The translations under genes were made by a program, and so were the position numbers. Shown one piece after another: positions 1 through 28,707 of a DNA stretch of 64,000 bases. This stretch comes from Narcine bancroftii (taxonomy: Eukaryota). A model generated the notes under the pieces. That model was given only the letters and a program-made list of their open reading frames with translations, was not told the DNA's origin and ran no database searches. The number at the start of each line of letters is the position of its first letter. The first letter of the stretch is position 1. The stretch is taken from positions 203,608,001-203,672,000 of the forward strand of contig NC_091470.1 of assembly GCF_036971445.1 (NCBI RefSeq), given 5' to 3'.

Positions 1-11896
<11,896 letters not shown>

Positions 11897-13553
11897 CAAG
11901 CTCTTCAAAAGCCATACCAAATGCTTCTCTCTGTCCGAGCGCCCCCACCGCCGGTCCGACCAGTGGCCAGAGTCGCCCATTCACCATGCCCATTATTTTT
12001 CCTTCTTTGTTTCGCATCAGCCAATTAGCTATGTGTCTTTACTCAACCTTTTCATCAGCAGCTGCGTGAGGTGGGAAAACAAGATGGCCACCCATGGAGA
12101 TGTGGTCAAGATGGCCACCTGCGGATACACGGTAAGATGGCTGGCTGCGGGTACACAGTCAAGATGGCCGCCCACAGCACGCAGTCAAGATGGCTTCCCT
12201 GCAGTACACAGTCAAGATGGCTGTCCCGCAGTTACATTGTCAAGATGACCACCCAGCGATATGCAGACAAGATGCTTCCCCCTCCTAGGACACAAGGTCA
12301 GGATGGCCACTCCACGGGTATGAAGACAAAATGGCCACCCCGTGGGAACAAGGTCAAAATGGCCACCCCCTCCCAGGACCCAAGGTTAAGATGGCTGCCC
12401 CATGGGTACCAGGTAAAAATGGCCACCCGGCGGGTACTCGTGGGTATCAGGTCCACTTGGCCGCCCTATGGGTGCAAAGACAAGATGGCTGGCCCCTCCA
12501 GGACACAAGGTAAAAATGGCCATCCCGTCGATACAGTCAAGATGGCTGCCCCGCAGGTACATAAACAAAATGGCCATCCCCTCCCTCCAAGCCATAGTCA
12601 CTGAGGCGACCCATTGACAGTTTACGTTCTCGAACCTCTGTCACATGACTTGATGCTGCAGCAAATACCACTTTGGCCTTCGAAGATGGGACGAGGAAGA
12701 GAGAGAAAAAAGGATTTTAAAAATAAACTTTTTTATTGAAGAAAAGAAGCATTAAGAAGTGGTTTTGGATTGTTAAATACGGGTTATAGCAAGAGTTATT
12801 TTTGTCTTTGCTTCTTGTTTGAGGTTTATGTATTGTGTCACTTTAATTTAGACACACACCAGCCCCCAGTGAAGCCCCTTTTCATATAAATTATCAATCA
12901 CATCATCCCCACCATCTGCATCCATTGTTTTTAAAAAGAAAATTTCTAATGTACAGTCTTTGGTTTTATTTATGAAATTCTCTATTTATTCACTCTTAAT
13001 GGTTTTCTCTGGAGGTTTCACATTTTTAAAAAATGATTAAGTTTCATGAAACGAAACACTTTCGACTCCGAGTTTCTTCACCCCTCTGCACATTTCCTGT
13101 TCATCTTACCACTCCTTCCTTCACTTGCTCCTCCATGCCCTTCTCCCCTCCTTTCCTCTCCCACTACCTTCCTCTTCCTCTTTCCCCTCTCCCTTTTCCT
13201 CTCCACCATCCTCCCCACCTCTCGCTCCAGTTCCTTGCATTACTGCCCCTTCCCTCTCTCTCTCTCCCGTCTTCGCTCCTCCTCTCCCCCACCCCACTGC
13301 AGGGTCCTCTAGAACTGGATGAAATCAGGCCTGTTTTATTTTCTTGCAGAGTGTGACATTATTTTCATTGTAATTGAAGTTACGCTCGCGATCCTTCCAA
13401 AATGCGAGGTCACATTTTACGGCAATGTTGAAAATTCACTATTTTTTTGTTGGATTTTATGACAAGGGTATGTTTTGGAGTTTACTGCACTGTTAAGAGA
13501 AACTGAGCCAGAATTGTCTTAACTTTGTGAAATTGTCTGATCTACACAATAAA
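11897..13553 (+). other. Putative KDM6B 3' UTR ending near AATAAA 13548-13553
   Basis: Follows TGA at 11894-11896; AU-rich blocks at 12700-13060 and 13330-13560. An earlier AATAAA lies near 12722. Confidence 0.55.
12080..12575 (+). repeat. Array of 18 short motifs (consensus CAARATGGCY, YY1-like) with variable spacers
   Basis: Units at about 12080, 12107, 12133, 12160, 12186, 12213, 12241, 12268, 12299, 12327, 12355, 12387, 12415, 12453, 12481, 12512, 12538, 12566; 14 keep an intact AA(G/A)ATGGC core. Confidence 0.85.
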
Positions 13554-13823
13554 AGCTTTTGATAAACTTTCCTCCATGTCCTTGGTGCCCTGGGTCTGGA
13601 TCCGCACACGAGGGGCAGGTTCCATCCGCAGGACCAGGAAGGAGTGATGAGGCTTGCCGTCATAACACAGAAATAGACTGTTCAGCCCATCGAGTCTGCC
13701 CCACCATTCAATCATGAGCTGATCCATTCTCCCCTCTGCCCGGCCTTCTCCCCTCTGCCCGGCCTTCTCCCCTCTGCCCGGCCTTCTCCCCATAACCTTT
13801 GGTGCCCGAGCTAATCAAGAACC

Positions 13824-14109
13824 TGTAGCAGCGTCCACACTGCTAACTGAAGGATTGCACAACCAGATGGGTTGAGTTCAGTGAGCAAAAACTGATTTAT
13901 TGCAGGTTGCCTGGCTGGTCTTATACTCCCAGCCCGGACCTGGCTGAGAACCGTGTTGGGGTACCCCGACGTCACCGGGGCGTCACGTGGGTCCCCAAGC
14001 ACGGGCTTCTGAGCACAGTGCCGAGGTTGGGAGGAAAACCCCGATGGCACCATTTTGGCCAGCTGCCAAAAGTGGGGCCAATTCACCTGCCTAATGGCAT
14101 ACCGCCACA
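13824..14109 (-). repeat. Gypsy 3' LTR
   Basis: Direct repeat of 25404-25698; AATAAA and TATA-like box on the minus strand. Confidence 0.9.
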
Positions 14110-15094
14110 CAGCTCCCCACCCCCCAGAACCGGCACCAATGTCCTTTTTTGCCAGGCGGCCTCGCTTCTTAGATTGGGCCACAACTGGTTTTGTGGGGTC
14201 GAGGTGGGCTGGTTTTAACCTGTCTACCGTAAACAGTTCCCTCTTACTACCGATGTCCAGTGTGAAAGTGGATGCTGAACACTGGACAACTTTGTACGGC
14301 CCTTCATATGGTCTTTGTAGAGGTGCTGTGGACGGGCCCCGTCTGATAAAAATGTACTCTGCAGAGTACAGCTCGCTGGGGAAATAAGAGGCCCATGTGT
14401 CGAGTCTGGGCAGCAGTGGGGGTGTGAAGGAGTCCAACTGGGCCCGGAGCCGGGGAAGTAGACCATGCGGTGACTGCTGGAGGTTGTGAGGTGCATTGAC
14501 GAACTCACCTGGTAGGGCTAGCGGTGCACCATAGACCAGCTCAGCTGATGACGCCTGTAGGTCTTCTTTGGGTGTTGAGCGGATGCCCAGGAGCACCCAA
14601 GGCAGTTCGTCCACCCAGTCGGGACCAGTGAGGTGGGCCATAAGTGCCGACTTAAGGTGGCAGAGCAAGCGCTTGACTGGCCTATTGGCCTGTGATAGAC
14701 CATGGTGTGACATAGCTCAATCCCCAGCCTGTTGGCAAGCTCTGCCCAGAGGTGAACTGGGCGCCCCGATCACTGGTGAGGTGGTTCGGGACGCCGAACC
14801 GGGCAACCCAACTGTTCAAAAGCGCTCGGGAGCAGGAGTCCATGGAGGCATCTGGTATTGGGATTGCCTCAGGCCAACGAGTGGTGCGTCTACCACGGTT
14901 ACCTCGGGAAACGAGTAAGGGTCTGACAATGTCCACATGTATCTGGCTGAACTGTTCCCGGATGTGTTTGAAATGTTGAACGGGCGCTCTGGTGTGCTTG
15001 TGTACCTTGGAAAGCTGGCAATGGGTGCAGGTTCTGGCCCAGTCTGCAATCTGCTTCCGAAGCCCGTGCCAGACGAAATGTTCTGCCACCATAC

Positions 15095-15564
15095 TGTGAG
15101 AAACAGAAGTACCTTCACAGATTTCGCTCGAGACAAAAATTGAGAACAAAGAACATTTATTGTACAACAATGCAAACTTCCCCTTACCCTGGGAATACAC
15201 ACACATACTGGGGCTCACCCAACTTTTATACAGTTCATTTCATAGAGGTACCCTCCCCCACTAACATTCTTCTGCCTCCTGGATTGGTTTGGCATTTGGT
15301 AATTCTGTCTGCCTACGTGCAGTAAACTTGAAAGACCATGGGGTATCCTGTCTGGGTCCCATCATGTCATTGTCCTTACTCATGAATCTACCTTTGTCCT
15401 TATTCACACATCTCAACCCCCAGGACATACCTATAAGAACTTGCTAATTCTGTCTATCACTATAAGACCCGGATTCTATTGCGTAACCCTTTCCTCACAC
15501 TCATCGGAATTCATTACTTAGCATTCATACCAGTTTTACTTCCTATATTCTATTATCTCTCACA
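15095..15564 (-). repeat. ERV 3' LTR (470 bp)
   Basis: TGTGAGA..TCTCACA inverted ends; TATAAAA and AATAAA on the minus strand; purine-rich tract adjacent. Confidence 0.92.
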
Positions 15565-15597
15565 ATCCACACTTTTTTAGCTACGCTTAGTAAATTC

Positions 15598-16631
15598 TCA
15601 ACTGGAAGCTTGGTCTTTTTCCCACCGAGTCAGCAAACGAACTGCAATCTCAGCATCATCAGACGGAGTTTGGGAAACATACATCCTTTGGGTTGTAGTG
15701 ATCTGACGAAGGGTCCGTTGAATTAAACACTGCACACAAGTCATTAGGCAGGGAAGTATCATGATGGCTAAAATAACGAGTCCAACTGCTATAAGGGCTG
15801 TGTGTATCCACCTCCAGTCACCAGTAAAAAGTTCAACTGCCTGACCATTGTGACCATTGAAATCAATCGATCTTCCACAAACGCCGCCCTCAGCACCCAA
15901 CAAGTAATCGAGAGCCAGGCGGTTTTGATAAGCTATAGCTCGTATCTGTCGTTGTTCTTCAGCCAATAAATCCAAGGCCGTCGCTGTCTGTTTGGTGATA
16001 ATCTCCAAAACTGCCTGGAGTCTGATTAAATGGTTTAAATGCCAAACAGCTGTGGTATTCTGGAGCAGCTTGAGCTGTTTAGAACCAGAATCCCCGTTAT
16101 AGTGATGGCCTTTAGCCTTCCGAATATTCGTGACCCAAAGGATGATTTACAAGATGCCAAGTTGGGGGGGGTGGGGGTGGGGCATTTATTGTTACCTAAT
16201 CTGTGAGTAGCAGCTTGTCTGCGAGCATTAGCAAATATACCCCCTTTATCCCTACTCCAGGTATAGCCCTGACTAATGTTCTCCCTATCATTTTCCCACC
16301 ATCTTCTTTGGACCATATTTTTAGCACTCATCTCTTTAATATCTGTAGAGGCTGGGATGCAAACCCAATCCACTCCCCTAGGGCAGGTCTGTTTCCCTGG
16401 TCCATGTTGGGATCCTAAATTAAACCATACTAAATAAGGTACCCCACTATGAATAGAGTCTATACCTGTGCCCTGTCTGCATTCTAAAGGTAAACTTGTC
16501 CATTCCTCAAAGTAATTATCACCTCTGCTGCCCCTATTCCAGGAGGACTTAATACATTGTGTACAATTGGGTGGTTTCCCAAAAATTGGGAACCAGCAGA
16601 AAAACAATACAGCAAATAATAAAAATAACAT
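15598..16631 (-). pseudogene. env: ERV env, internally deleted
   Basis: Signal peptide MLFLLFAVLFFCWFPIFG; TM ectodomain [22 protein letters not shown] and immunosuppressive motif [19 protein letters not shown]; membrane anchor [18 protein letters not shown]. No recognisable furin site, fusion peptide or complete CX6CC. Confidence 0.85.
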
Positions 16632-19600
16632 TACAGCACTTTTTCCCGCATAGCTTAACTTTCAGACCAGAAGGATGCGAGACTGCACGCCAGGTGGAGA
16701 GTATATTATCAACATCTTTAGTCCATGGATTAGCTTGTTTAATGCGTTGTATGTGAGTCCACCCCTTTTCTTTTGTCCGCATTGCAGTGTCTGTAATCAG
16801 AAGTACACAATAAGGGCCGTCCCATATCAGTTTTAGTTTATGGTCTTGCCACACTTTTACATATACCCAATCACCAGGTTTTTACAGAATGAATAGGATA
16901 GTCCAGGGGTGGGTTTTGAGCTAATAAACCCTTCTGTCTTAAGTCATATAGAGAAGTAGAAAGTCCCTGTAAATATTTAGATATGTACTGGTCATTAGCC
17001 TCAGGGGTAGGGGTATCAGTGGAATCCCATGTAAGGAAGAACCAAACATCATTTCATATGGTGAGACAGCAAGGTCCTTACGAGGAGCTGTGCGAGTGCT
17101 GATTAAAGCTAAGGGTAAGCATTTAATCCAGGAGAGGCCAGTTTCCTCATGAAGTCGAGTGAGTTGATTTTTCAGGGTCTGATTCATCCGTTCAACACGG
17201 CCTGAACTCTGGGGGTGCCATGGGGTATGTAACTGCCAATCTATTCCCAGGATTTTATGCACACCCTCCTGGAGTACCTGAGAGGTAAAATGTGTACCTC
17301 GATCTGAGCCAATGGTTTGAATAATCCCATAACGCGGAATAACAGACTCTAGTAATATCCGGATAACGGTGCTAGCACGATCATTAGGGGTTGGGAAAGC
17401 CTCAACCCATCGAGTAAAATGATCCACCATCATCAGGAGGTATTTATAAACCCTTATCTTAGGTAGTTCCGTGAAGTCAACTGTATTTGTTGAAACGGGC
17501 GTAATGCTATATCGCGACCGCCAGGCATTACTTGGCGCATTACTTTCTTATTCACTCGCTGACAGATTGGGCACCCCCGAGTACTTTGCTTGGCTATGGT
17601 GTATATTCCCGAGCAATTAAAGGACCGTACAAAAGCATCAACAAGTGCCTGAGTTCCCCAATGTGTCTGCTGGTGGAGCTGATCAATAATCTGACGAGCC
17701 AAGGCTCTGTTCAGTACTTGGCATCCCTCTGCCGTCCACCACAACCCATCGGCAGTTTGACGCATTCCCTGGTCTTTCATATAAACCTCCTTTTCCAGTG
17801 AAAAGATGGGAGTCTTTTGAACCTCCTGTGGGGTGGAGAGCAACAGCTGCATGTCTATTTTTTCTGTGAGTGCAGCCTGTTTGGCAGCTTCATCTGCCCG
17901 TCTGTTCCCCTGTGCTTCAGGACTGTCAATAATTTGATGGCCCCATACATGAACTACAGCTATCTCCTCAGGTAACATAAGAGCATCTAAGGATTGAACA
18001 ATTAAGTTTTCATGGATCAACTTTTGTCCTTTCCCAGTTATCATTCCCCGCTCTTTCCAAATCTTTCCAAAGGTGTGCACTACACCAAAAGCATACTTTG
18101 AGTCGGTATAGACTTTCCCTCTAAACCCTGGAGAGCTCCACAGAGGGCATATAATTTACAGGATTGTGCCGACCAATGACCGGGAAGACGACCGGCTTCA
18201 ATCACAACTCCTTCATTCCCATCCACTACATTATACCCGCTATACCGAATGCTGTCAATGCAGCGGGAAGATCCATCAATAAACCACCTTTCACCCTCCC
18301 ATAAAGGTTAATCACTTAAATCATCTCTAATTTTTGTCTGTAAATCTATCACTTCTAAACATACATGCTCTAAATCATTGGGGACAGTATCAGAATCTGG
18401 AGAAACCAAGAAGGCGGCTGGATTCTGTTCTTTGTTCATAATCAGTGTCAAACCATCCCTATCCATGAGAATCGCTTCATACTTTAAAATTCTAGAATCA
18501 GTAAGCCACCTTCCGGCACGTTGTAAGAGAATGGTGTGGACTGTGTGAGGGGTATGAACTATCATCAGGGCACCAAACGTAATCTTTCATCCTTCCTTGA
18601 CTAAAATAGCAGTGGCTGCAATTGCTTGCACACATTCTGGCCAACCACGACAAACAGGATCTAAAATTTTTGACAGAAGGGCAACTGGTTATCTAAAGCC
18701 TGCCCTCTCTTGCATTAATACTCCCATGGCCACACCGTCTTTCACATTGGTATATAGGTCAAATGGCTTATTTAGGTCGGGTAAAGCCAAAACTGGGGCA
18801 CTAATAAGACGCTGTTTCACCAAGGTAAAATCTTTAATCTCCTCCTCCGTCCAGACAACAGTTTCGCCCCCGAGAGTTGCAAGTTTATCATAAAGAAATT
18901 TGACCAGGCTAGAATAATTCTCAATCCAAATTCTACAGTATCCCACTAAACCAAAGAATTTCCTAAGTTCTTGAGCACTCTTTGGAGGCGGGATCTGCAG
19001 AGTACCGCGTGTTCTCTCTGGACTTATCTTCCTAATTCCTTGACTAACCAGATGACCTAAGTATTTAACTTCAAATTGAACAAATTTTAACTTTGATTCA
19101 CTCACTCTAAGACCCTTATTCCCTAGAAAATTCAAATATTCAACAGTGTATTGTTTAACCACATCATACGTTTTTCCCGTGATTAATAAATCATCAACAT
19201 ATTGTATTAATTGACAATTCTCTCTCCGAGGGGCCTCATCTAGTATCTGTTCTAAAACTTGGCCAAACAAATTTGGGGATTCTGTAAAACCCTGGGGAAG
19301 GACTGTCCACCAGTATTGATTTTTCCGTCCTGTAAAAGGATTCTCCCACTCAAATGCAAACATGTCCTTACTGTCTATTGCCAATGGACAGGTCCAAAAG
19401 GCATCTTTGAGGTCAATTACACTAAACCACTTACTATGGGGATCAATTTTACCCATTAACGTATAGGGGTTAGGTACAACCGGATAACAGGTGAGAATAA
19501 TTTTGTTTAACTCCCTCAAATCCTGCACTAATCAATAGGTACCATCTGGTTTTTGGACAGGTAAAATTGGGGTATTAAAAGGTGACATACAAGGTTCGAG

Positions 19601-20167
19601 TATACCATCCTTCACCAATTGGTCAATTACTGGCTGCAGCCCCTTTCGGCCAGCCATAGGAATTGGATACTGTTTTCGTCTAATTACTTGGTCAGGTTCT
19701 TTTAAAGTAACTTGCAGGGGAGGAACATCTAACCCTCCTCTATTGGCTCTTTTTGCTCATACGCTAGGATTTATTAGTTCCTGATCCTCCTCTGTTAGTA
19801 CATAAAATTGAACCCCTATACATGATCCCTATGGTCTGGTACCGATAGCCAATTGGTCCTGTAAATCCCGTCCCAACAAGCAAACTCCAGCTTGGGGAAC
19901 TAGTAAAATATCCTCTGTTATTATCTTTTTTCCCATTTGTATCCTTACATTCTTTAGTATTGGGACCGTAAAATCTCTTCCTCCCACTCCCGAAATCATC
20001 ACTGTCCCTTCTGTTTTAACACCCTCGGGCCGTTGTAAAATACTAGACCGGGCTGCCCCAGACTCAACTAGAAAAGTTATCTCGTCACTGTGGGGTCCTA
20101 TGCTTAAATTTACCAATGGTTCTCCGTGCAGCCCCACAATTGGAATTGACTGAGAACCGTGACCCCC
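16549..20167 (-). pseudogene. pol: ERV pro-pol, disrupted
   Basis: Protease FLVESGA (catalytic D to E) and LLGRDL; RT QDLRELNK, IDLKDAFW, LPQGF, YVDDLL; RNase H WFIDGS, YTDSKYAF; integrase HQQTHWG..CPIC, SDRGTHFT, PQSSGRVERMN, WDGPY. Confidence 0.92.
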
Positions 20168-21895
20168 CTATTCATAATCTGCCTCCATCAATGCGTAAGA
20201 TCACGTCTCCCTGGCTCGCATTGGGCATTCCCTCTTAAAGTGTCCCTCCTTTTTACATGAATAGCAAACTAATGCTCCTGTTTCCCAATTTCTACCAGGG
20301 TCTCCACGGGGTCCCGGGAATGGTTGTCGTCCCCAGAATTCTCCTCTACCCCTGCCTCTACTCTGGTCTCTACTTCCCCACTCCTGGCGCTCCTCCCAAC
20401 GTCCAGGAGCTGGCACACAGTTCCTAACATTTCCATGCTGTCCCTCCACAATTTCCTTGACTGCCTGCATCCAAATCTTAGCCTTTCCTTTCTGTTTATC
20501 TTCAGACCTCTGGACGTATGCCCTTTGTGCGATCTGTAAAAGCTGTGTTATTCCCTGTTCATGCCAATTCTCTGTCTTTTGAAATTTCTTCCTGATATCT
20601 GGGGCTGAATTAGTAACAAAGCCCATCAATACCAACTGTTCACCTGCTGGGGATTCTATATCCAACCCCCCATATTGCTGTATGGCCGCAAGCAATCTAT
20701 TCAGAAATGCAGAGGGGGTCTCCTTGGGACCTTGGGGAACCTCAAATGCCTTCTTAAAGTTCTGTCCTTTTGGAACAGACTCTTTTATTCCTTTTATTAT
20801 ATTAATCCTATACTCTTCCATTCGTGTGCGACCATCATTAGTATTCTTATTCCAATTCGGGTTTACCAGGGGAAATTTAAATTCCCCAGGTATCGCCTCT
20901 GGTCCCCCTTGGAGTTCCCTATCCCAGACTCTAATCCCTGCCTGGCAAATCATTCCACGCTCATCCAAAGTGAATAGATCGATATTAATTAATCCCAGGT
21001 ATATATATTCGGTCCCAAAAATTGATCTAATTGTTCTGCACATCCCTGAGGGTCTTCTATCAGGGAGGTCATTTCCTTCTTAAAATTGTGCACCTCCGTA
21101 CTAGTCAGAGGCACATTTACGAACCCAAGACCCCCCCACATCCCCTCCCAAAGGAACCTCTTGTAAAGGTCTCATCCAGTTAAGTTCTGGTTTATCCCCT
21201 CCTCTATGATGTTTAGGTTCCTGCCCTCTGGGAGACAAATCAAAGGGTTCTGCCCTTCCCTCCTGAAAGGTCTCACACTGTTCTGAATGACCCTCATAAT
21301 CAAAGTCTCCTCCCTCTCGTGTCAATTGAGGCAGTAATCTTGTACTCTGAGAGCGGGTCATCATACCACCCCTACTTTCTTCTTCTTTCTCTAACTGTGG
21401 AGGAGGAGGGAAAGGGTAAAGAAGGGTAAAGCATAGGTGAGAGGGGGAGATAGGAGCCGGCACAGGGGGAGCATAAGGTGGAGGAAGGGAATGTAACACA
21501 TCCCATCCTTGTATTTCAGGGGCAGAAGGTTCCTCATCCTTCTTGTTTTTACATTCCTTTTCGCTCAAAATCATTTGATCAAACGATCCACTGATCCAAC
21601 AGGCTGCATATTCTCTGCTCTCAGTATTACCTCCTTGATTTTGGTAGAGCCAGATGTTCAATGCCTGACACATCCAGTCCTCGTCGGATCCAAACTTTGG
21701 CTAATATACCAAACTCCCTTTTATCGGATTCTTAACCCATTCCTGACAGCAATACCTAACCATGGTCTGTTTATCTTTCCCACAGGTTTTCCCCACACCC
21801 CAATCAGATAACATTAATCCTAATGGACTATGTTTAGGTATCTGATCTTCCCGTCCTTCTTTAGGACTGTTTCCCTTGCTACTTACTCCTCCCAT
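20168..21895 (-). pseudogene. gag: ERV gag, disrupted
   Basis: MGGVSSK myristoylation-type start, PPPY late domain, MHR-like QGPKETPSAFLNRL, CCHC knuckle CYSCKKEGHFKREC; ends at TAG 20168-20170; internal stops and frameshifts. Confidence 0.88.
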
Positions 21896-22126
21896 ACTAG
21901 CAGGTAAATAAAATTCCTCTTACCGGGATCCAGTAGCTATTCCTAACGCGCTTCCTTAATGTTCTCCCATTGTTTGTTCTCAATGCCTCTTCTCGGATAT
22001 CACTCGCTTCGTCCATTGACCAGTCACCCTTCATCCGGGAGTCCAGCTGAATCAGCCGGGGTGCACCTACCCCGTCGTTGGGCACTCTGTCAGTGGAGGG
22101 AGTGCGATCCCGGACGATCCCCCATT

Positions 22127-22666
22127 TGTGAGAAACAGAAGTACCTTCACAGATTTTGCTCGATACAAAAATTGAGAACAAAGAACATTTATTGTACAAC
22201 AATGCAAAGTTGGGTGTTTCCCATTACCCTGGGAATACACACACATACTGGGGCTCACCCAACTTTTATACAGTTCATTTCAGTGTAGAGGTACCCTCCT
22301 CCCCTAACATTCTTCTGCCTCCTGGATTGGTTTGGCATTTGGTAATTCTGTCTGCCTATGTGCAGTTTCTGTAAACTTGAAAGACCATGGGGTATCCTGT
22401 CTGGGTCCCATCATGTCATTGTCCTTATTCATGAATCTGCCTTTGTCCTTATTCACACATCTCAACCCCCAGGACTTACTCATTCTATATGCAGAACTTG
22501 CTAATTCTGTCTATCACTATAAGACCCTTGTTCTATTATACTTGCGATAACCCTTCCTCACACTCTTATCGGAATTCATCCCTACTCAGCACTTACTTAA
22601 CTTCCTCTAGTCTAGTCTAGTATTCCTTATTTCATTCATACTAGCTATATTCTATTATCTCTCACA
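22127..22666 (-). repeat. ERV 5' LTR (540 bp)
   Basis: Direct repeat of 15095-15564, followed by PBS-Pro. Confidence 0.92.
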
Positions 22667-25403
22667 ATACGGACCGTAGACCTGAAGGAAAAGGTCATGG
22701 ATACGGTGGAAGACTTGCCTGCACCACTGCTGGGAAACCACTGGTCACGCAGGTGCCCATGGAGACATCGCAGAGGTCAGTGCCCTCACCTTGAGGAGTC
22801 AGGAGGTCCTGGAACCGCAGGCCCGTGATGGCAGTCCTGAAGGTCCGTGTCTCCTCATTGGACTTCCGGTCCTAGGCGAGCTGGTCGAAGTCGAGGCCGG
22901 GTGTCAGCGCGCAAATGGCCAGTCGTGAGAGTGCGTCGGTGACCACGTTGTCTTCCCCCGCCTGGTGCTGATTGTCGGTGGTGAACTCTGACTTGAAGGA
23001 GAGGTGACTCTGTTGGCGGGCCAACCAGGGATCTCTTGCCATAGCGAGCGCCTGAGTAAGGGGTTTGTGGTCGGTAAAAATGGTGTAAGGCCTTCCGTCC
23101 AAGAAATAGCTGAAAATACGCACCGCCAGGTACATGCCCAGCAACTCACGATCAAAAGTGCTATACTTGCACACTGGTGGGCGAAGAAGTCGGCTAAAGA
23201 ATGCCAGTGGTTTCCACTGTCTGTTCACCTGCTGCTCCAGGACGGCGCCAACGGCCATGGCAGAGGAATTGATGGAGATTGCCATATGCAGGTCAGTGTG
23301 TGGGTGGACAAGCAGGGTAGCCTTCGCAAGGCCATCTTTCATGGCTTCGAATGCCCTGCTGGCCTCTGGAGTCCAGGCAAGTCTCTTGCCTTTGGCCGCG
23401 ATGAGGGCGAAGAGCGGCTGCATGATGCGCACAGCACCTGGAATGAAGCAGTTATAGAAATTGACCATACCCGTGAACTCTTGTAGCCCCTTGAGGTTGT
23501 CTGATTGCAGCGACCTTCATAGCGGCAGTTGTGGCTCCTTCGGCCATGATGGTATGACCCAGGAACTGCATGGACTCTTTCCCAAACTGGCACTTGGCTG
23601 GATTGATCGTTAGGCCGAAGTCAGCTAGTCGGGAGAAGAGGGTGTGCAGGTGAGACTTGTGTTGTGTCCGGTTTCCACTGGTGACAAGGATGCCATCCAG
23701 GTAAATGAATACGAAATTCAAATCCCTGCCCACTGTGTCCATGAGGTGCTGGAAGGCCTGGTTCTTGAGCCTGAACGGCATGTGTCGGAACTCGAACAAG
23801 CCAAAGGGGGTGATCATGGCCATTTTGGGTATGTCCTCAGGGTGCACCGGGATTTGGTGATACCCGCTCACCAATCAACCTTGGAGAATACTCTCGAGCC
23901 ATGCAAGTTGGCGTAAAGTCCTGGATGTGAGGGATCGGGTAACGGTCAGGTACTGTCGTGTCATTAAGCCGGCGATAATCTCCCCAGGGCCGCCAGCCGC
24001 CGGAGGCTTTCGGAACCAGGTGGAGTGGTGAGGCCCAAGGACTGTCGGAGCATCGAATGATCCCCAGCTCCTGTAGATGCAAGAACCCTTCCTTCGCTAT
24101 CTGGAGCTTATCCTGCGGGAGCCGGTGGGCCTTGGATGGGGTTGTAATGAAACACACCATGACGTGGTGAGGTGGCGGAGAACTGTGGCTTGAGGAGGGA
24201 CGGGAACTCGTCCAGGATACGCAGAAATTCGTCCTTGGGCATGCTGACTGTGGCCATCTGTGTGTGCTCTGTGCGGGAAGCGTTGAGGCGAATGGATTGG
24301 AAGATATGGGCATCTACCAATCACCTACCTCGAATGTCGACCAGGAGTCTGTGGGCGAGGAAGAAGTTGACGCCCAGGATGGCGATTGGAAGGGACGAAA
24401 CAGTGAACCACCACGAGAACTTCCGCTGGCTGATCTGGAAGTGGACGGTCTTGTCTCCATATGTTTGGATCTCCATCGAATTAGCTGCACGGAGGGGAGG
24501 TCCTCGAGACCAGTTCCAGGACTCGAAGGTTGTGGCCAGGATGAAGCTGATCTGGACCCTGGTGTCGTTGAGGAAGCATCAGCCACTGACTTAATTCCAC
24601 AAGAAGAGAAGGGTGTGTTCTTGGCCAGCCGCTGCAGCCATTAACAGTGGCTGGCCTGCTCGTTACCCTGGATTGAGCAGGGCTGACGACACTTCCGAGC
24701 CTTGGCTCCCCAGCGCTGGTGGAAGAAGCAGAGGCCTGAAGTGGATGACTTGCTTCTGGCTATGCTCTTTGAGGCCCTGGCATGGGCCGGGTGTTCCACC
24801 GCAGCGCTAGAGGAAGGCTTGGCGTGGTCATGCCCGTGACTCATAACCTGCTGGACTCCTGAGCCCTCCAGGAATCATTTAAGCCATAGCTCCTGAGCCT
24901 TTTGAGCGACCTTCCTAGGGTCGACGAAGCTCTCCTGGGACAGTAACGGCCGGATGTCTTCAGGCAGATGGTCAAGGAAGATGCGCTCGAAGAGTGGGCA
25001 GTTGGTGTGATTGCCCATGAGCGTGAGCATCTCGTCCATCAACTCAATTGGAGTTCTGTACCCCAAGTCGTCGAAGCGCAGCATCTGAGCTGCACACTGG
25101 CACCTGGAGAGGCTGAGGGAGCCGGTGAGGACCCGCTTGATGGTCCCATACTTATCTTCCGCGGGTGGGTGCTGAACGAGGTGCAGCACTCGTTTAGTGG
25201 TGGCCTAATCCAGGGCAGCAACCACATGGTAAAACTTGGTCGAATCTGATTAAATCTGGCGGAGGTGAAACTGAGCCTCTGCATGGCTGAACCAGGTCTC
25301 CAGCTCCTGAACCCAGAAGTCAGGAAGTTTGATGGCTATACCGTTGATTGAAGGGTTGTTCATATTGGGTTCAAAGATGTTTGAACCTGTCGGGGTCACC
25401 AAT

Positions 25404-25698
25404 TGTAGTGGCAGCTACACTGCTGACTGAAGAATCGCACAACCAGATGAGTTGAGTTCAGTGAGCAAAAACTGATTTATTGCAGGTTGCCTGGCTGGTC
25501 TCATACTTCCAGCCCGGACCTGGCTGAGAACTGCACTAGGGGTCCCCGACTTTACCGGGGCATCACATGGGTCCCCCAAGCACGGGATTCTGAGCCCGGT
25601 GCCTAGGTCGGGAGGAAACCCCCACCCCCACCGATGGCGCCATCTTGGCCAGCTGCCCTGTCGTCTACATGACAAATGGGGCTGGTTCACCCGCCACA
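25404..25698 (-). repeat. Gypsy 5' LTR
   Basis: Direct repeat of 13824-14109, followed on the minus strand by PBS-Trp. Confidence 0.9.
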
Positions 25699-26147
25699 AA
25701 CCTGTGGATCTCTACCTTAAATACACCCAGTGACCCAGCCTTCATGACTGCCCGTGGCAACAAATGCCACAGATTTAAATTTACAATTTAAAAAAGACCA
25801 TGTGGTAACAGGCCCTTTCGACCCACAAGTCTGTGCACCCGATTAAACGACACTTCCTATATGTTTTGAACGTTGGGAGGAAACTGGAGCACTTGGGGAA
25901 ATCCCACACGGGGAGAACAAAGGAATGCTTTCTGGACAGCGTAGGATTTGAACCCTTGTCTTGATCGCTGGTGCTGTAACAACTTTACACTAACCATGGA
26001 TTTTTCCGCATGTCTGTTCTAAGTGGACGTCCTTCAATCCTGAAGTTGTGCCCTCATGTCCTCGACTCTCCCACCGAGGGAAACCACGTTTTACATCTAC
26101 ACTGGCCACTTTCAACATTTAAAATGTTTCTGAGATTTCCCCCCCCC

Positions 26148-26858
26148 CAGCCCTGTACCAGCCCCCACACTGATCCCACTGCCCCACTCTCTCCCCACAG
26201 CCCTGTACCAACCCCCACACTGATCCCACTGCCCCGCTCTCTCCCCACAGCCCTGTACCAGCCACCACACTGATCCCACTGCCCCGCTCTCTCCCTACAG
26301 CCCTGTACCAGCCCCCACACTGATCCCACTGCCCCGCTCTCTCCCCACAGCCCTGTACCAACCCCCACACTGATCCCACTGCCCCGCTCTCTCCCCACAG
26401 CCCTGTACCAGCCACCACACTGATCCCAATGCCCCGCTCTCTCCCCACAGCCCTGTACCAACCCACACACTGATCCCACTGCCCCGCTCTCTCCCCACAG
26501 CCCTGTACCAACCCACACACTGATCCCACTGCCCCGCTCTCTCCCCACAGCCCTGTACCAACCCCCACACTGATCCCACTGCCCCACTCTCTCCCCACAG
26601 CCCTGTACCAGCCACCACACTGATCCCACTGCCCCGCTCTCTCCCCACAGCCCTGTACCAACCCACACACTGATCCCACTGCCCCGCTCTCTCCCCACAG
26701 CCCTGTACCAACCCCCACACTGATCCCACTGCCCCGCTCTCTCCCCACAGCCCTGTACCAGCCCCCACAGCCCTGTACCAGCCCCCACACTGATCCCACT
26801 GATCCCACTCTCTCCCCACAGCCCTGTACCAGCCCCCATACTGATCCCACTGCCCCTG
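26148..26858. repeat. 50-bp minisatellite, about 14 copies, upstream of TMEM88
   Basis: Unit CCCTGTACCARCCCCCACACTGATCCCACTGCCCCGCTCTCTCCCCACAG. Confidence 0.95.
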
Positions 26859-27201
26859 ACTGTACTGATATCTCTCTAACTCTTTCAATTTGTGTGTGTA
26901 AGTCCCCCCTCCCCTGTCCTCTCCAATCTCCCCTCCCTTCCAACATCCCTTCCAACATCCCTCCCCTCCTCCCGGCTCCTCTGCCAGGATGAGGGGAGGG
27001 GGTTGTTATCTGAATTCCAGGACTGCCGCAACCCCTCCCTCCTCCCTTCCCCTCCTTCTGGTCCCTCCCTCCGGCCCCTCTGCCATGGGGGTTATCTGCC
27101 ACATCCCTCCCCCCGCCACTTCCCCTGCTGCCCCGGGAAGAGGAGGTGCCCCCCCTGCCCCACCACCACCTCCGCTCGCTGCCCCCCCAGCTGCCGGCCG
27201 C

Positions 27202-28707
27202 ATGTCGGACGGAGCTGCTCCACCGAGAGGTCCGGCCGCCGCGGGTGGGCTTTGGCCGCCCCCCTACACCCCCTCGGGCCGGAGCGGGGGGGACGGGCCG
27301 GAGCTGCGCTCGCCCTTGGACTGCTGGGCGTGTCCGGTGCTGGTGTCAGCCCAGAAACTGCCGGTGGCCGCCTTCAACCTGCTGCTGCTCGGCGCTACCC
27401 TCACCCCCATCCTCCTGCCCACCGGCATCATGGTGGGCTTCGGGCTGGCCTGTCACTCACAGGTGAGCCCCTTTCCCCCCTCCATCCATCTCTCCCTATC
27501 AGACCTCTCCCCCTTCATCCCTTCCCTCTCACCTTTCTCCCATCCTTCCCAATCACACTCCCTCCATCACTCTCCCTTCCTCCCCCTCTCTTACATCTTC
27601 CCTCCATCCTCCTGCCCCCCTGCATTATGGTGGGCTTCCGGCTGGCCTGTCACTCGCAAGTGAGCCCCTTCCCCCCTCCATCCATCCCTCTCTCTCAGAC
27701 CCCCTCCATCTCTCCCCTCTCCCATCCTTCCCACTCACACCCCTCCCTTCCTTCCTCCCCCTCTCACTTTCCCTCTATCCCTCCCACTCACACCCCTTCC
27801 CCCTCCTACACCCCTCTATCCCTCCTCCCTCACCCTCCCTTCCTTCCCCTCTCACACCTTCCCTCCATCCCTACCCTCCTCCCTACTCACACCCTCCCTT
27901 CCTTCCCCCTCTCTCACACCTTCCCTCCATCCCTCCCCTCCTCCCATCCTTCTCTCACCCCTCCCTTCTTCCCCCTCTCACACCTTCCCTCCTCCCATCC
28001 TTCCCACTCACACCCTCCCTCCCTGTCTCACACCTTCCCTCCATCCCTCTTCGCTCTCCCATCAAATACACACACTCCCTCCCTCCCTTCCCCTCACACC
28101 TTCCCTCCATCCCTTCCCCCTTCCAGCCTTCCCACTCCCCTCTCTTTCTTCCTCCCCTCTCACATCCTTCCCACTCACATTCCCTCCCTTCCTTCCTCCC
28201 CCTCCCTCACACCTTCCCTCCATCCTGTCCTCCACCCCTCCCTTGTCCCTCATCTGTAACTCTGTCATAACCTTGACATTTGTCTGCCGTAACAGTGCCC
28301 GAACTCCGCCATACTTCCGCCTGAATTCTTTTGTACCTTTGCTGTAACATTTAGCGTAACTCTTCCGTACATTTGCAGTAACTCTGCCATCATTGTCCTG
28401 CTCACTGCTTCCCTGACCACCCCCCAACCTCTCCCCACAGATCCTGGACTTGTCAGCTGGCCGGTGTAAGGAGACGCTGGGCGATGGCAGCTCGGCAGCA
28501 CTGGTGGCGGTGGGCTCAGTCCTGGCGGCGCCGCTGGCGGTCCTGGCCCTGGCGGCCTACTGCCACCTTGCCCGCCACCTCCATCTCAGCCTCTGCTTCG
28601 TCCCCTACAGCAAGGCTGTCTACCGGAACCTCCCGGCCAGCCACTACCAGAGTACGGGGGTATGCTACCTGCAGCCGAGAGAGACTGCTGGCAAGATCTG
28701 GGTGTAG
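27202..28707 (+). CDS. TMEM88: Transmembrane protein 88 (Wnt/Dishevelled inhibitor), 2 exons, about 175 aa
   Basis: Exon 27202-27462 (MSDG..GDGPELRSPLDCWAC.VLV.AQ.L.VAAFNLLLL..GFGLACHSQ) and exon 28441-28707 (..CFVPYSKAVYR..GKIWV*); phase-0 GT/AG intron; C-terminal PDZ-binding-type IWV. Confidence 0.92.

What the first reader, a model, noticed from the sequence alone, without database searches (positions are those of the whole stretch)
12080..12575. Repeat-spacer array of YY1-type motifs in the KDM6B 3' UTR
Seen: 18 same-orientation units spaced about 26-38 nt, in which the core (C/T/A)AARATGGC(C/T) is kept (14 of 18 intact) while the spacers differ strongly. Other tandem repeats in this window are homogeneous across the whole unit. 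Established: AANATGGC is the YY1 core, and clustered same-orientation YY1 sites occur in mammalian control regions such as Peg3 and Xist. Inference: motif-only conservation suggests selection on a multivalent YY1 (DNA or RNA) binding platform at the 3' end of the H3K27 demethylase gene, possibly for looping, insulation or feedback control. I know of no description of this in KDM6B but cannot search for one.
Basis: partly seen in the sequence, partly recalled or inferred. Interest (0 to 1): 0.72.

Follow-up and report, generated by a model that had tools for sequence, protein, structure and literature searches.

The report
YY1-motif minisatellite in KDM6B mRNA tail
In the untranslated tail of the chromatin-enzyme gene KDM6B of a cartilaginous fish lies an old run of 18 short repeats, also present and reshuffled in close relatives, in which an 8-letter word matching the binding site of the regulator YY1 is better preserved than the rest of the unit; it is likely a docking cluster for YY1, but binding and function are untested and chance preservation is not excluded.

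Summary
The array is real: 18 same-strand units of 26-38 nt, 14 with an intact AARATGGC, single-copy in the genome. It is a degenerate ~27-nt minisatellite; the spacers are homologous, not unrelated. It lies in the KDM6B 3' UTR (one spliced contig of a relative runs through it) and persists with a different unit number in two related lineages. Core columns differ from the majority in 12 of 144 cells, spacer columns in 105 of 324 (p about 0.002 off CpG columns, window choice corrected); neutral simulations reach this in 0.4-2% of samples. The one free core position is YY1's free position, and both core variants match probes that YY1 bound in published gel shifts. Against: the cross-species contrast (2 of 64 core vs 31 of 128 spacer sites) is partly explained by conversion between units; the array is CpG-poor and far from the KDM6B promoter; YY1-motif minisatellites are common in this genome, and this scan noted several before on other shark and ray DNA. 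Best reading: likely selected YY1 cluster of the Peg3/PIK3C2B kind (about 0.5), neutral repeat 0.38. No looping, insulation or feedback is shown.

The parts
12069..12590 (+). Degenerate ~27-nt minisatellite, 18 units, 14 intact AARATGGC cores (GGCCATYTT or AGCCATCTT on the - strand)
7773..7943 (+). Penultimate KDM6B coding exon (C-terminal zinc-binding region)
   Evidence: its end is the loose end of relative contig X15 at 11865
11870..11896 (+). Last coding exon part, TPQPASSR and stop
11897..12068 (+). Unique proximal 3' UTR; 11 of 171 sites differ in organism E
12591..13570 (+). Distal 3' UTR with AATAAA at 12722 and 13548; 13305-13595 about 94% alike in organism D, overlapping pieces in E and F
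13824..25700 (-). LTR retroelement (LTRs 87% alike) with an endogenous retrovirus (about 15095-22480) nested in it; separates KDM6B from the next gene
27085..28707 (+). Two-exon TMEM88-like gene (name recalled; no Pfam or Atlas hit), possible second target of the array

Best explanation
An old ~27-nt minisatellite in the KDM6B 3' UTR keeps turning over between species, while its AARATGGC core is likely held by purifying selection as a cluster of YY1 DNA-binding sites that would help set transcription of KDM6B or of the next gene. Shown: the array, its place in the spliced mRNA of a relative, unit-number change, and a core that is better kept than the spacers. Inferred: selection; YY1 as the binder; action at the DNA level. 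The cores lack the CpG of the CGCCAT site whose methylation blocks YY1, so they would stay usable in methylated gene-body DNA (inference). The most likely action is enhancer- or tether-like, on the KDM6B promoter or on TMEM88, whose first ATG would lie about 2.6-2.8 kb from the array without the 11.9-kb LTR insertion.
For: Within array: core 12 of 144 vs spacer 105 of 324 cells off majority; parsimony changes 11 in 8 core columns vs 55 in 13 non-CpG spacer columns, best-window-corrected p 0.002. Neutral simulations with mutation, CpG decay, conversion and duplication reach so clean an 8-column window in 6 of 1350 young arrays and 5 of 215 equilibrium samples. Core position 3 changes at the spacer rate (5 changes vs 4.2 expected) while positions 1, 2 and 8 have 3 changes vs 12.7 expected, p 0.001: the pattern of YY1's CGCCATNTT, where both T's are needed; GGCCATTTT and AGCCATTTT probes were bound by YY1 (PMC1904287). 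14 of 18 units meet the ECMFinder YY1 pattern, cluster threshold 3 per 500 bp. Relatives: core 2 of 64 vs spacer 31 of 128 listed sites in D (p 8e-5; off CpG 2 of 64 vs 17 of 95, p 0.003), E 3 of 64; flank-anchored units 1 of 56 vs 23 of 103. The three further cores seen in loose ends of C and D are intact. Single copy; 4 of 13 genome-wide matches to a mixed-unit triple pattern are here, control 0.
Against: No binding, chromatin or expression data. Core divergence (3%) equals that of the unique UTR flank off CpG (6 of 150); if neutral divergence is as low as that and conversion does the rest, 2 or fewer core differences arise in 14-18% of simulations (2% at 10% divergence, 0 at 15% or more). 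In organism C the contrast is 0 of 24 vs 7 of 49, p 0.05, and 6 of the 7 are CpG sites. D and E differ from each other at 1 listed site and count as one lineage. 4 of 18 cores are broken, and 10 CpGs of D are decayed here vs 1 the other way, several just 3' of the core. CpG o/e is 0.39, whereas two other diverged clusters in this genome sit in more CpG-rich, promoter-like DNA. AARATGGC-bearing tandem repeats are frequent here (741 triple matches vs 259 control, mostly a few perfect satellites), so a scan will pick some lucky ones. Same orientation follows from tandem duplication and says nothing.
Confidence: 0.5

Rival explanations
1. A neutral minisatellite tolerated in the UTR. Conversion and unequal exchange shuffle spacer variants, CpG decay speeds up the spacers, and the CpG-free core is by chance the cleanest window.
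For: Active turnover: 709 vs 582 nt between the same flanks in D/E; spacers off CpG 17 of 95 vs flank 6 of 150; 32 of 33 D alleles occur in the same column of this array; 14 of 31 spacer differences are at CpG sites; simulations; many other AARATGGC repeats; uneven divergence in the neighbouring intron repeat.
Against: Contrast survives removal of CpG columns and window correction; reached in 0.4-2% of neutral simulations, before asking that the window be a known motif with its free position in the right place.
Confidence: 0.38
2. The motif works in the mRNA: as repeated AUGs in strong start context (downstream ORFs) or as a site for an RNA-binding protein or microRNA.
For: It is in the spliced transcript of organism E; AARATGGC has a purine at -3 and G at +4 of an ATG, and G is kept at -6 in 16 of 18 units (Kozak rule recalled).
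Against: ATGs fall in all three frames with ORFs of 6-155 codons; positions the Kozak rule leaves loose (core 2 and 8) are constrained, p 0.01; the longest unvarying stretch is 5 nt, short for a microRNA seed; no stable fold (z -0.11); no Rfam match.
Confidence: 0.08
3. Origin only, compatible with either reading above: the unit was captured from the gag-protease linker of an abundant Ty3/gypsy family, whose antisense strand carries 1-5 tandem AAGATGG(C/T) units 24-28 nt apart.
For: 71 of 77 matches to a two-unit pattern lie elsewhere, most as one dispersed doublet; a related family has 1894 candidates, zinc knuckle, RNase H and integrase remains, and some copies have grown into small minisatellites. 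Middle parts of 11 spacers from 20 copies chosen by flank score slightly above shuffles against the array (1.24 vs -0.14, sd 0.52).
Against: Whole spacers score 2.9 vs 1.8 (sd 0.7) for shuffles, 2.0 for unrelated clusters and 12.2 within the array; no match outside the cores in 59 loci or in 5 longer loci; the array finds only itself in the genome.
Confidence: 0.15

Closest known systems
Peg3-DMR tandem YY1 array of mammals (PMC4196374, passages; PMC2665242, parts 2-3 of 5)
   Same: YY1 motif embedded in tandem repeats, about 10 or more sites, motif kept while number and spacing change between species.
   Different: Peg3 sites (GGCGCCATCTT) carry the methylation-sensitive CpG and lie in the first intron of an imprinted, differentially methylated region with shown YY1 binding. 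Here: 3' UTR, CpG-poor, no such CpG in the core, no binding data, no known imprinting.
PRE-PIK3C2B, 25 x 25-mer YY1 minisatellite in human PIK3C2B intron 1 (PMC3689693, passages)
   Same: Short-unit minisatellite with one YY1 site per unit; that one repressed a reporter also when placed downstream of the poly(A) signal, dependent on the YY1 motif.
   Different: First intron, homogeneous unit, tested binding and Polycomb recruitment; this array is old, degenerate, exonic and untested.
YY1 autoregulatory cluster in YY1 intron 1 (PMC2743690, part 1 of 5)
   Same: Cores kept, spacers free, also in fish.
   Different: 5 sites in 100 bp, two orientations, next to the promoter, kept across vertebrates; not a minisatellite.
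YY1-motif minisatellites noted earlier by this scan in sharks and rays (e1-9396517, e1-9347032, e1-9375437, e1-9016546; unchecked notes)
   Same: Tandem units with a YY1 word, two of them just behind a stop codon, one with a 27-nt unit.
   Different: By those notes mostly weak or no sign of core retention; here the core-spacer contrast is significant, the locus is single-copy and the host is a chromatin enzyme.

Membership tests
Clustered YY1-site elements (Peg3/ECMFinder kind) | Match to cgCCATntt with at most one mismatch in lower-case positions | tested here: met
   14 of 18 units (definition)
Clustered YY1-site elements (Peg3/ECMFinder kind) | At least 3 sites in 500 bp | tested here: met
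   14 in 500 bp
Clustered YY1-site elements (Peg3/ECMFinder kind) | Sites kept across species while spacers and number change | tested here: inconclusive
Clustered YY1-site elements (Peg3/ECMFinder kind) | Within 5 kb of a transcription start, usually first intron or CpG island | tested here: not met
   3' UTR, CpG o/e 0.39; next gene now 14.5 kb away, about 2.7 kb without the LTR insertion.
Clustered YY1-site elements (Peg3/ECMFinder kind) | YY1 occupancy in vivo | not testable with these tools
   needs ChIP or CUT&RUN
Imprinting control region / DMR | Allele-specific methylation over CpG-bearing YY1 sites | not testable with these tools
   No methylation data; 0 of 14 intact cores have the CGCCAT CpG, which argues against
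Polycomb response element (PRE-PIK3C2B kind) | YY1-dependent repression and PRC2 recruitment | not testable with these tools
   needs reporter and ChIP
Dispersed satellite or transposon fragment | Homologous copies or element flanks elsewhere in the genome | tested here: not met
   1 match, itself (that search skips very common words); no flank homology; spacer likeness to the gypsy linker weak
Structured RNA element | Stable fold or Rfam family | tested here: not met
   z -0.11; 0 Rfam matches at E 1
KDM6B (host gene) | Closer to KDM6B than KDM6A; separate KDM6A paralogue; synteny | tested here: met
   Exon 4327-4467 scores 78.5 bits on KDM6B vs 65.4 on KDM6A; exon 7776-7943 scores slightly higher on UTY/KDM6A, 69 vs 64; a second locus on C16 looks KDM6A-like; Cyt-b5 gene at 38 kb with TMEM88- and CHD3-like neighbours (order recalled from human)

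The most novel reading that the evidence does not exclude
An exonic, methylation-tolerant YY1 array at the 3' end of the H3K27 demethylase gene acts as a tunable gene-end tether or Polycomb-type element, linking YY1/Polycomb dosage to the enzyme that removes the Polycomb mark, with repeat number as a dial that differs between species.
Probability: 0.1. Interest if true: 0.7.

Novelty: new member of a known kind. Interest (0 to 1): 0.36.

Why it matters
If the cores are selected, this is a natural case of a regulatory element built and maintained by minisatellite turnover, outside mammals and inside a 3' UTR, where YY1 clusters have been little sought (ECMFinder looked only 5 kb around starts). 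It offers a compact test: 14 sites, relatives with more units, and an 11.9-kb insertion that moved the next gene away. If neutral, it is a useful warning that conversion makes motif-bearing repeats look selected.

Tried and rejected
No RNA holder listed on record in the run search (16 runs, 7 studies, 8 runs of the own organism, four of them guessed to be RNA); none of those 8 was laid, so splicing is shown only in relative E. Of the 8 other runs 7 were laid. Coding role: unit lengths and ATG frames are not frame-keeping; stop read-through would end before the array. KDM6A-like paralogue: 2 AARATGGC on the gene strand in about 19.7 kb behind the matching exon, no cluster; its last exon was not located. 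Metagenome scan: 12 loci; the 6 examined, three of them fish-like, hold 0.6-1.9 kb behind the exon and no array; the fish-like ones are not shown to reach the UTR, so they say nothing. First segmentation of the intron 56-mer was wrong and redone. The sigma-70 scan is irrelevant to this organism. Atlas and Pfam gave nothing for the TMEM88-like ORF. Two papers wanted for YY1 motifs (PMC2668202, PMC1484457) are not held. Literature: searches (clustered YY1, binding sites, tandem repeat, KDM6B; YY1, UTR, KDM6B, JMJD3; KDM6B, TMEM88, promoter; YY1, minisatellite, shark: 0 papers) showed no description of this array in their listings; most subscription papers are not covered, and ECMFinder's supplementary gene list was not opened. 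No PWM scan or Dfam search was possible.

Full report
Observation. The spacers are related to each other: the units align without gaps over 26 columns, mean spacer identity is 0.56, and TRF and the repeat finder see 26-28-nt periods and larger internal duplications. It is an old minisatellite. A search of the 3.3-Gb genome finds only itself.

Host gene and place. Exons at 3909-4097 (JmjC), 4327-4467, 5256-5381 and 7773-7943 and a last exon from 11870 (TPQPASSR, stop 11894-11896) make a KDM6 C-terminus. One exon is clearly closer to KDM6B, one slightly closer to KDM6A/UTY; a second, KDM6A-like locus exists on C16; the neighbours (TMEM88-like, a Cyt-b5 gene, CHD3-like; names and human order recalled, Cyt-b5 hit) fit KDM6B. 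AATAAA lies at 12722 and 13548. A 2374-nt contig of relative E begins in the penultimate exon, skips the intron and runs through the array to 12860, so the array is in the spliced mRNA there. An earlier scan note calls this genome an electric ray (not checked).

Relatives. Contigs of organisms C, D and E carry the array. D and E are nearly identical to each other and span 709 nt where this genome has 582, with one replaced block, one extra duplication and one shortened block. The tool showed 40 of 43 difference rows and, as far as I can tell, none within about 30 nt of piece ends, so I counted only inner ranges: D core 2 of 64, spacer 31 of 128; E 3 of 64; C 0 of 24 and 7 of 49. Of D's two core changes one is the A/G toggle at position 3 and one keeps CCATNTT. 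Off CpG sites the D contrast stays (2 of 64 vs 17 of 95, p 0.003); in C it vanishes. All these species are within about 2-7% in unique UTR, so deep conservation is untested.

Is the core selected? Within the array, core cells are off majority in 12 of 144 and spacer cells in 105 of 324; with parsimony counts, CpG columns removed and the best window chosen freely, p is 0.002; simple column permutation gives 0.007-0.026. Neutral simulations with CpG decay, conversion and unit duplication gave so clean a window in 6 of 1350 young arrays and 5 of 215 equilibrium samples. The cross-species test adds less than it seems. Spacers differ four times more than the unique flank off CpG (17 of 95 vs 6 of 150), and 32 of 33 D alleles already occur in the same column here, which points to shuffling among units. 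Starting from the real array, 2 or fewer core differences arise in 14-18% of neutral runs if point divergence is 4%, in 2% at 10%, and never at 15% or more. I could not measure the neutral rate.

Which binder? Position 3 changes as freely as a spacer column while positions 1, 2 and 4-8 hardly change. That is the YY1 consensus CGCCATNTT read backwards, in which both T's are needed; GGCCATTTT and AGCCATTTT probes were bound by YY1 in gel shifts, and methylation of the CGCCAT CpG blocks binding (PMC1904287, passages and section 13). The intact cores here lack that CpG. The dinucleotide after the core is CA 9, TG 5, CG 2 of 18, and 10 CpGs of D are decayed here against 1 the other way: the region is likely methylated in the germline and the flanks of the sites are wearing down while the core stays. 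A start-codon reading fits less well (core positions 2 and 8 constrained, p 0.01; ATGs in all frames), and there is no RNA structure.

How unusual? AARATGGC repeats are not rare here: 741 triple matches vs 259 for the reversed control, the listed 100 dominated by two perfect satellites. Among 17 loci compared, four others have 8 or more cores per 500 bp; three are homogeneous (0.89-0.99) and one has mostly 21/24-nt in-frame units, probably coding. Two small diverged clusters sit in more CpG-rich, promoter-like DNA. An abundant Ty3/gypsy family has 1-5 such cores on the antisense strand of its gag-protease linker; its spacers resemble the array only faintly and no element flank is present. This scan has noted other YY1-motif minisatellites in sharks and rays, none like this stretch by sequence.

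Target. An LTR element of about 11.9 kb with a nested endogenous retrovirus lies right behind the distal poly(A) signal. Without it the TMEM88-like start codons (27085 or 27202) would be 2.6-2.8 kb from the array, so the array may have served that promoter rather than KDM6B. Nothing here decides this. The closest tested cases are Peg3-DMR, PRE-PIK3C2B and YY1 intron 1; PMC3575792 (passages) only confirms that the YY1 word is retained in mammalian promoters.

Verdict. Real, ordinary in kind, somewhat unusual in place and in the strength of core retention. Likely selected YY1 cluster 0.5, neutral repeat 0.38, RNA-level role 0.08; retroelement origin 0.15, separate from those. New member of a known kind; interest 0.36.

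Noticed in passing
window 13824-25700: Nested insertion between KDM6B and TMEM88-like: a gypsy-type LTR element (LTRs 87% alike) holding an endogenous retrovirus with gag p30, RT, integrase and an env-like stretch, LTRs 96-98% alike, frames broken by stops.
   Followed up: partly
window 11394-11769: 56-nt minisatellite (about 7 copies) just before the last KDM6B splice acceptor, with CAGGTG (E-box, recalled) twice per unit and a variable junction.
   Followed up: partly
window 12575-12860 and 13305-13595: 3' UTR blocks about 94-98% alike in relatives; candidates for RNA-level regulatory elements.
   Followed up: no
L064:5740-5910 and L065:5980-6410 (G000:C5 139.62 and 139.64 Mb): Two promoter-like clusters of 4 and 6 same-strand AARATGGC sites with diverged spacers, 15 kb apart; L065 begins with 5 kb of very high CpG o/e (1.8), probably a satellite.
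   Followed up: partly
L027-L045, L066-L090: Abundant Ty3/gypsy families whose gag-protease linker carries tandem YY1-type words on the antisense strand and sometimes expands into minisatellites; a possible general source of YY1-motif repeats in these genomes.
   Followed up: partly
L047, L057, L058: Another dispersed family (67-75% alike) with 3-6 AAAATGGC units at 24-nt spacing and diverged spacers; type not determined.
   Followed up: no
L052-L055 (G000:C11 87.48 and 93.37 Mb), L059 (C203): AAGATGGC plus CAG-rich 28/31-nt arrays at two loci, and a 21/24-nt in-frame array with 17 cores.
   Followed up: no
window 26143-26838: 50-nt minisatellite (12.5 copies, 95%) ending about 250 nt before the TMEM88-like start.
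   Followed up: no
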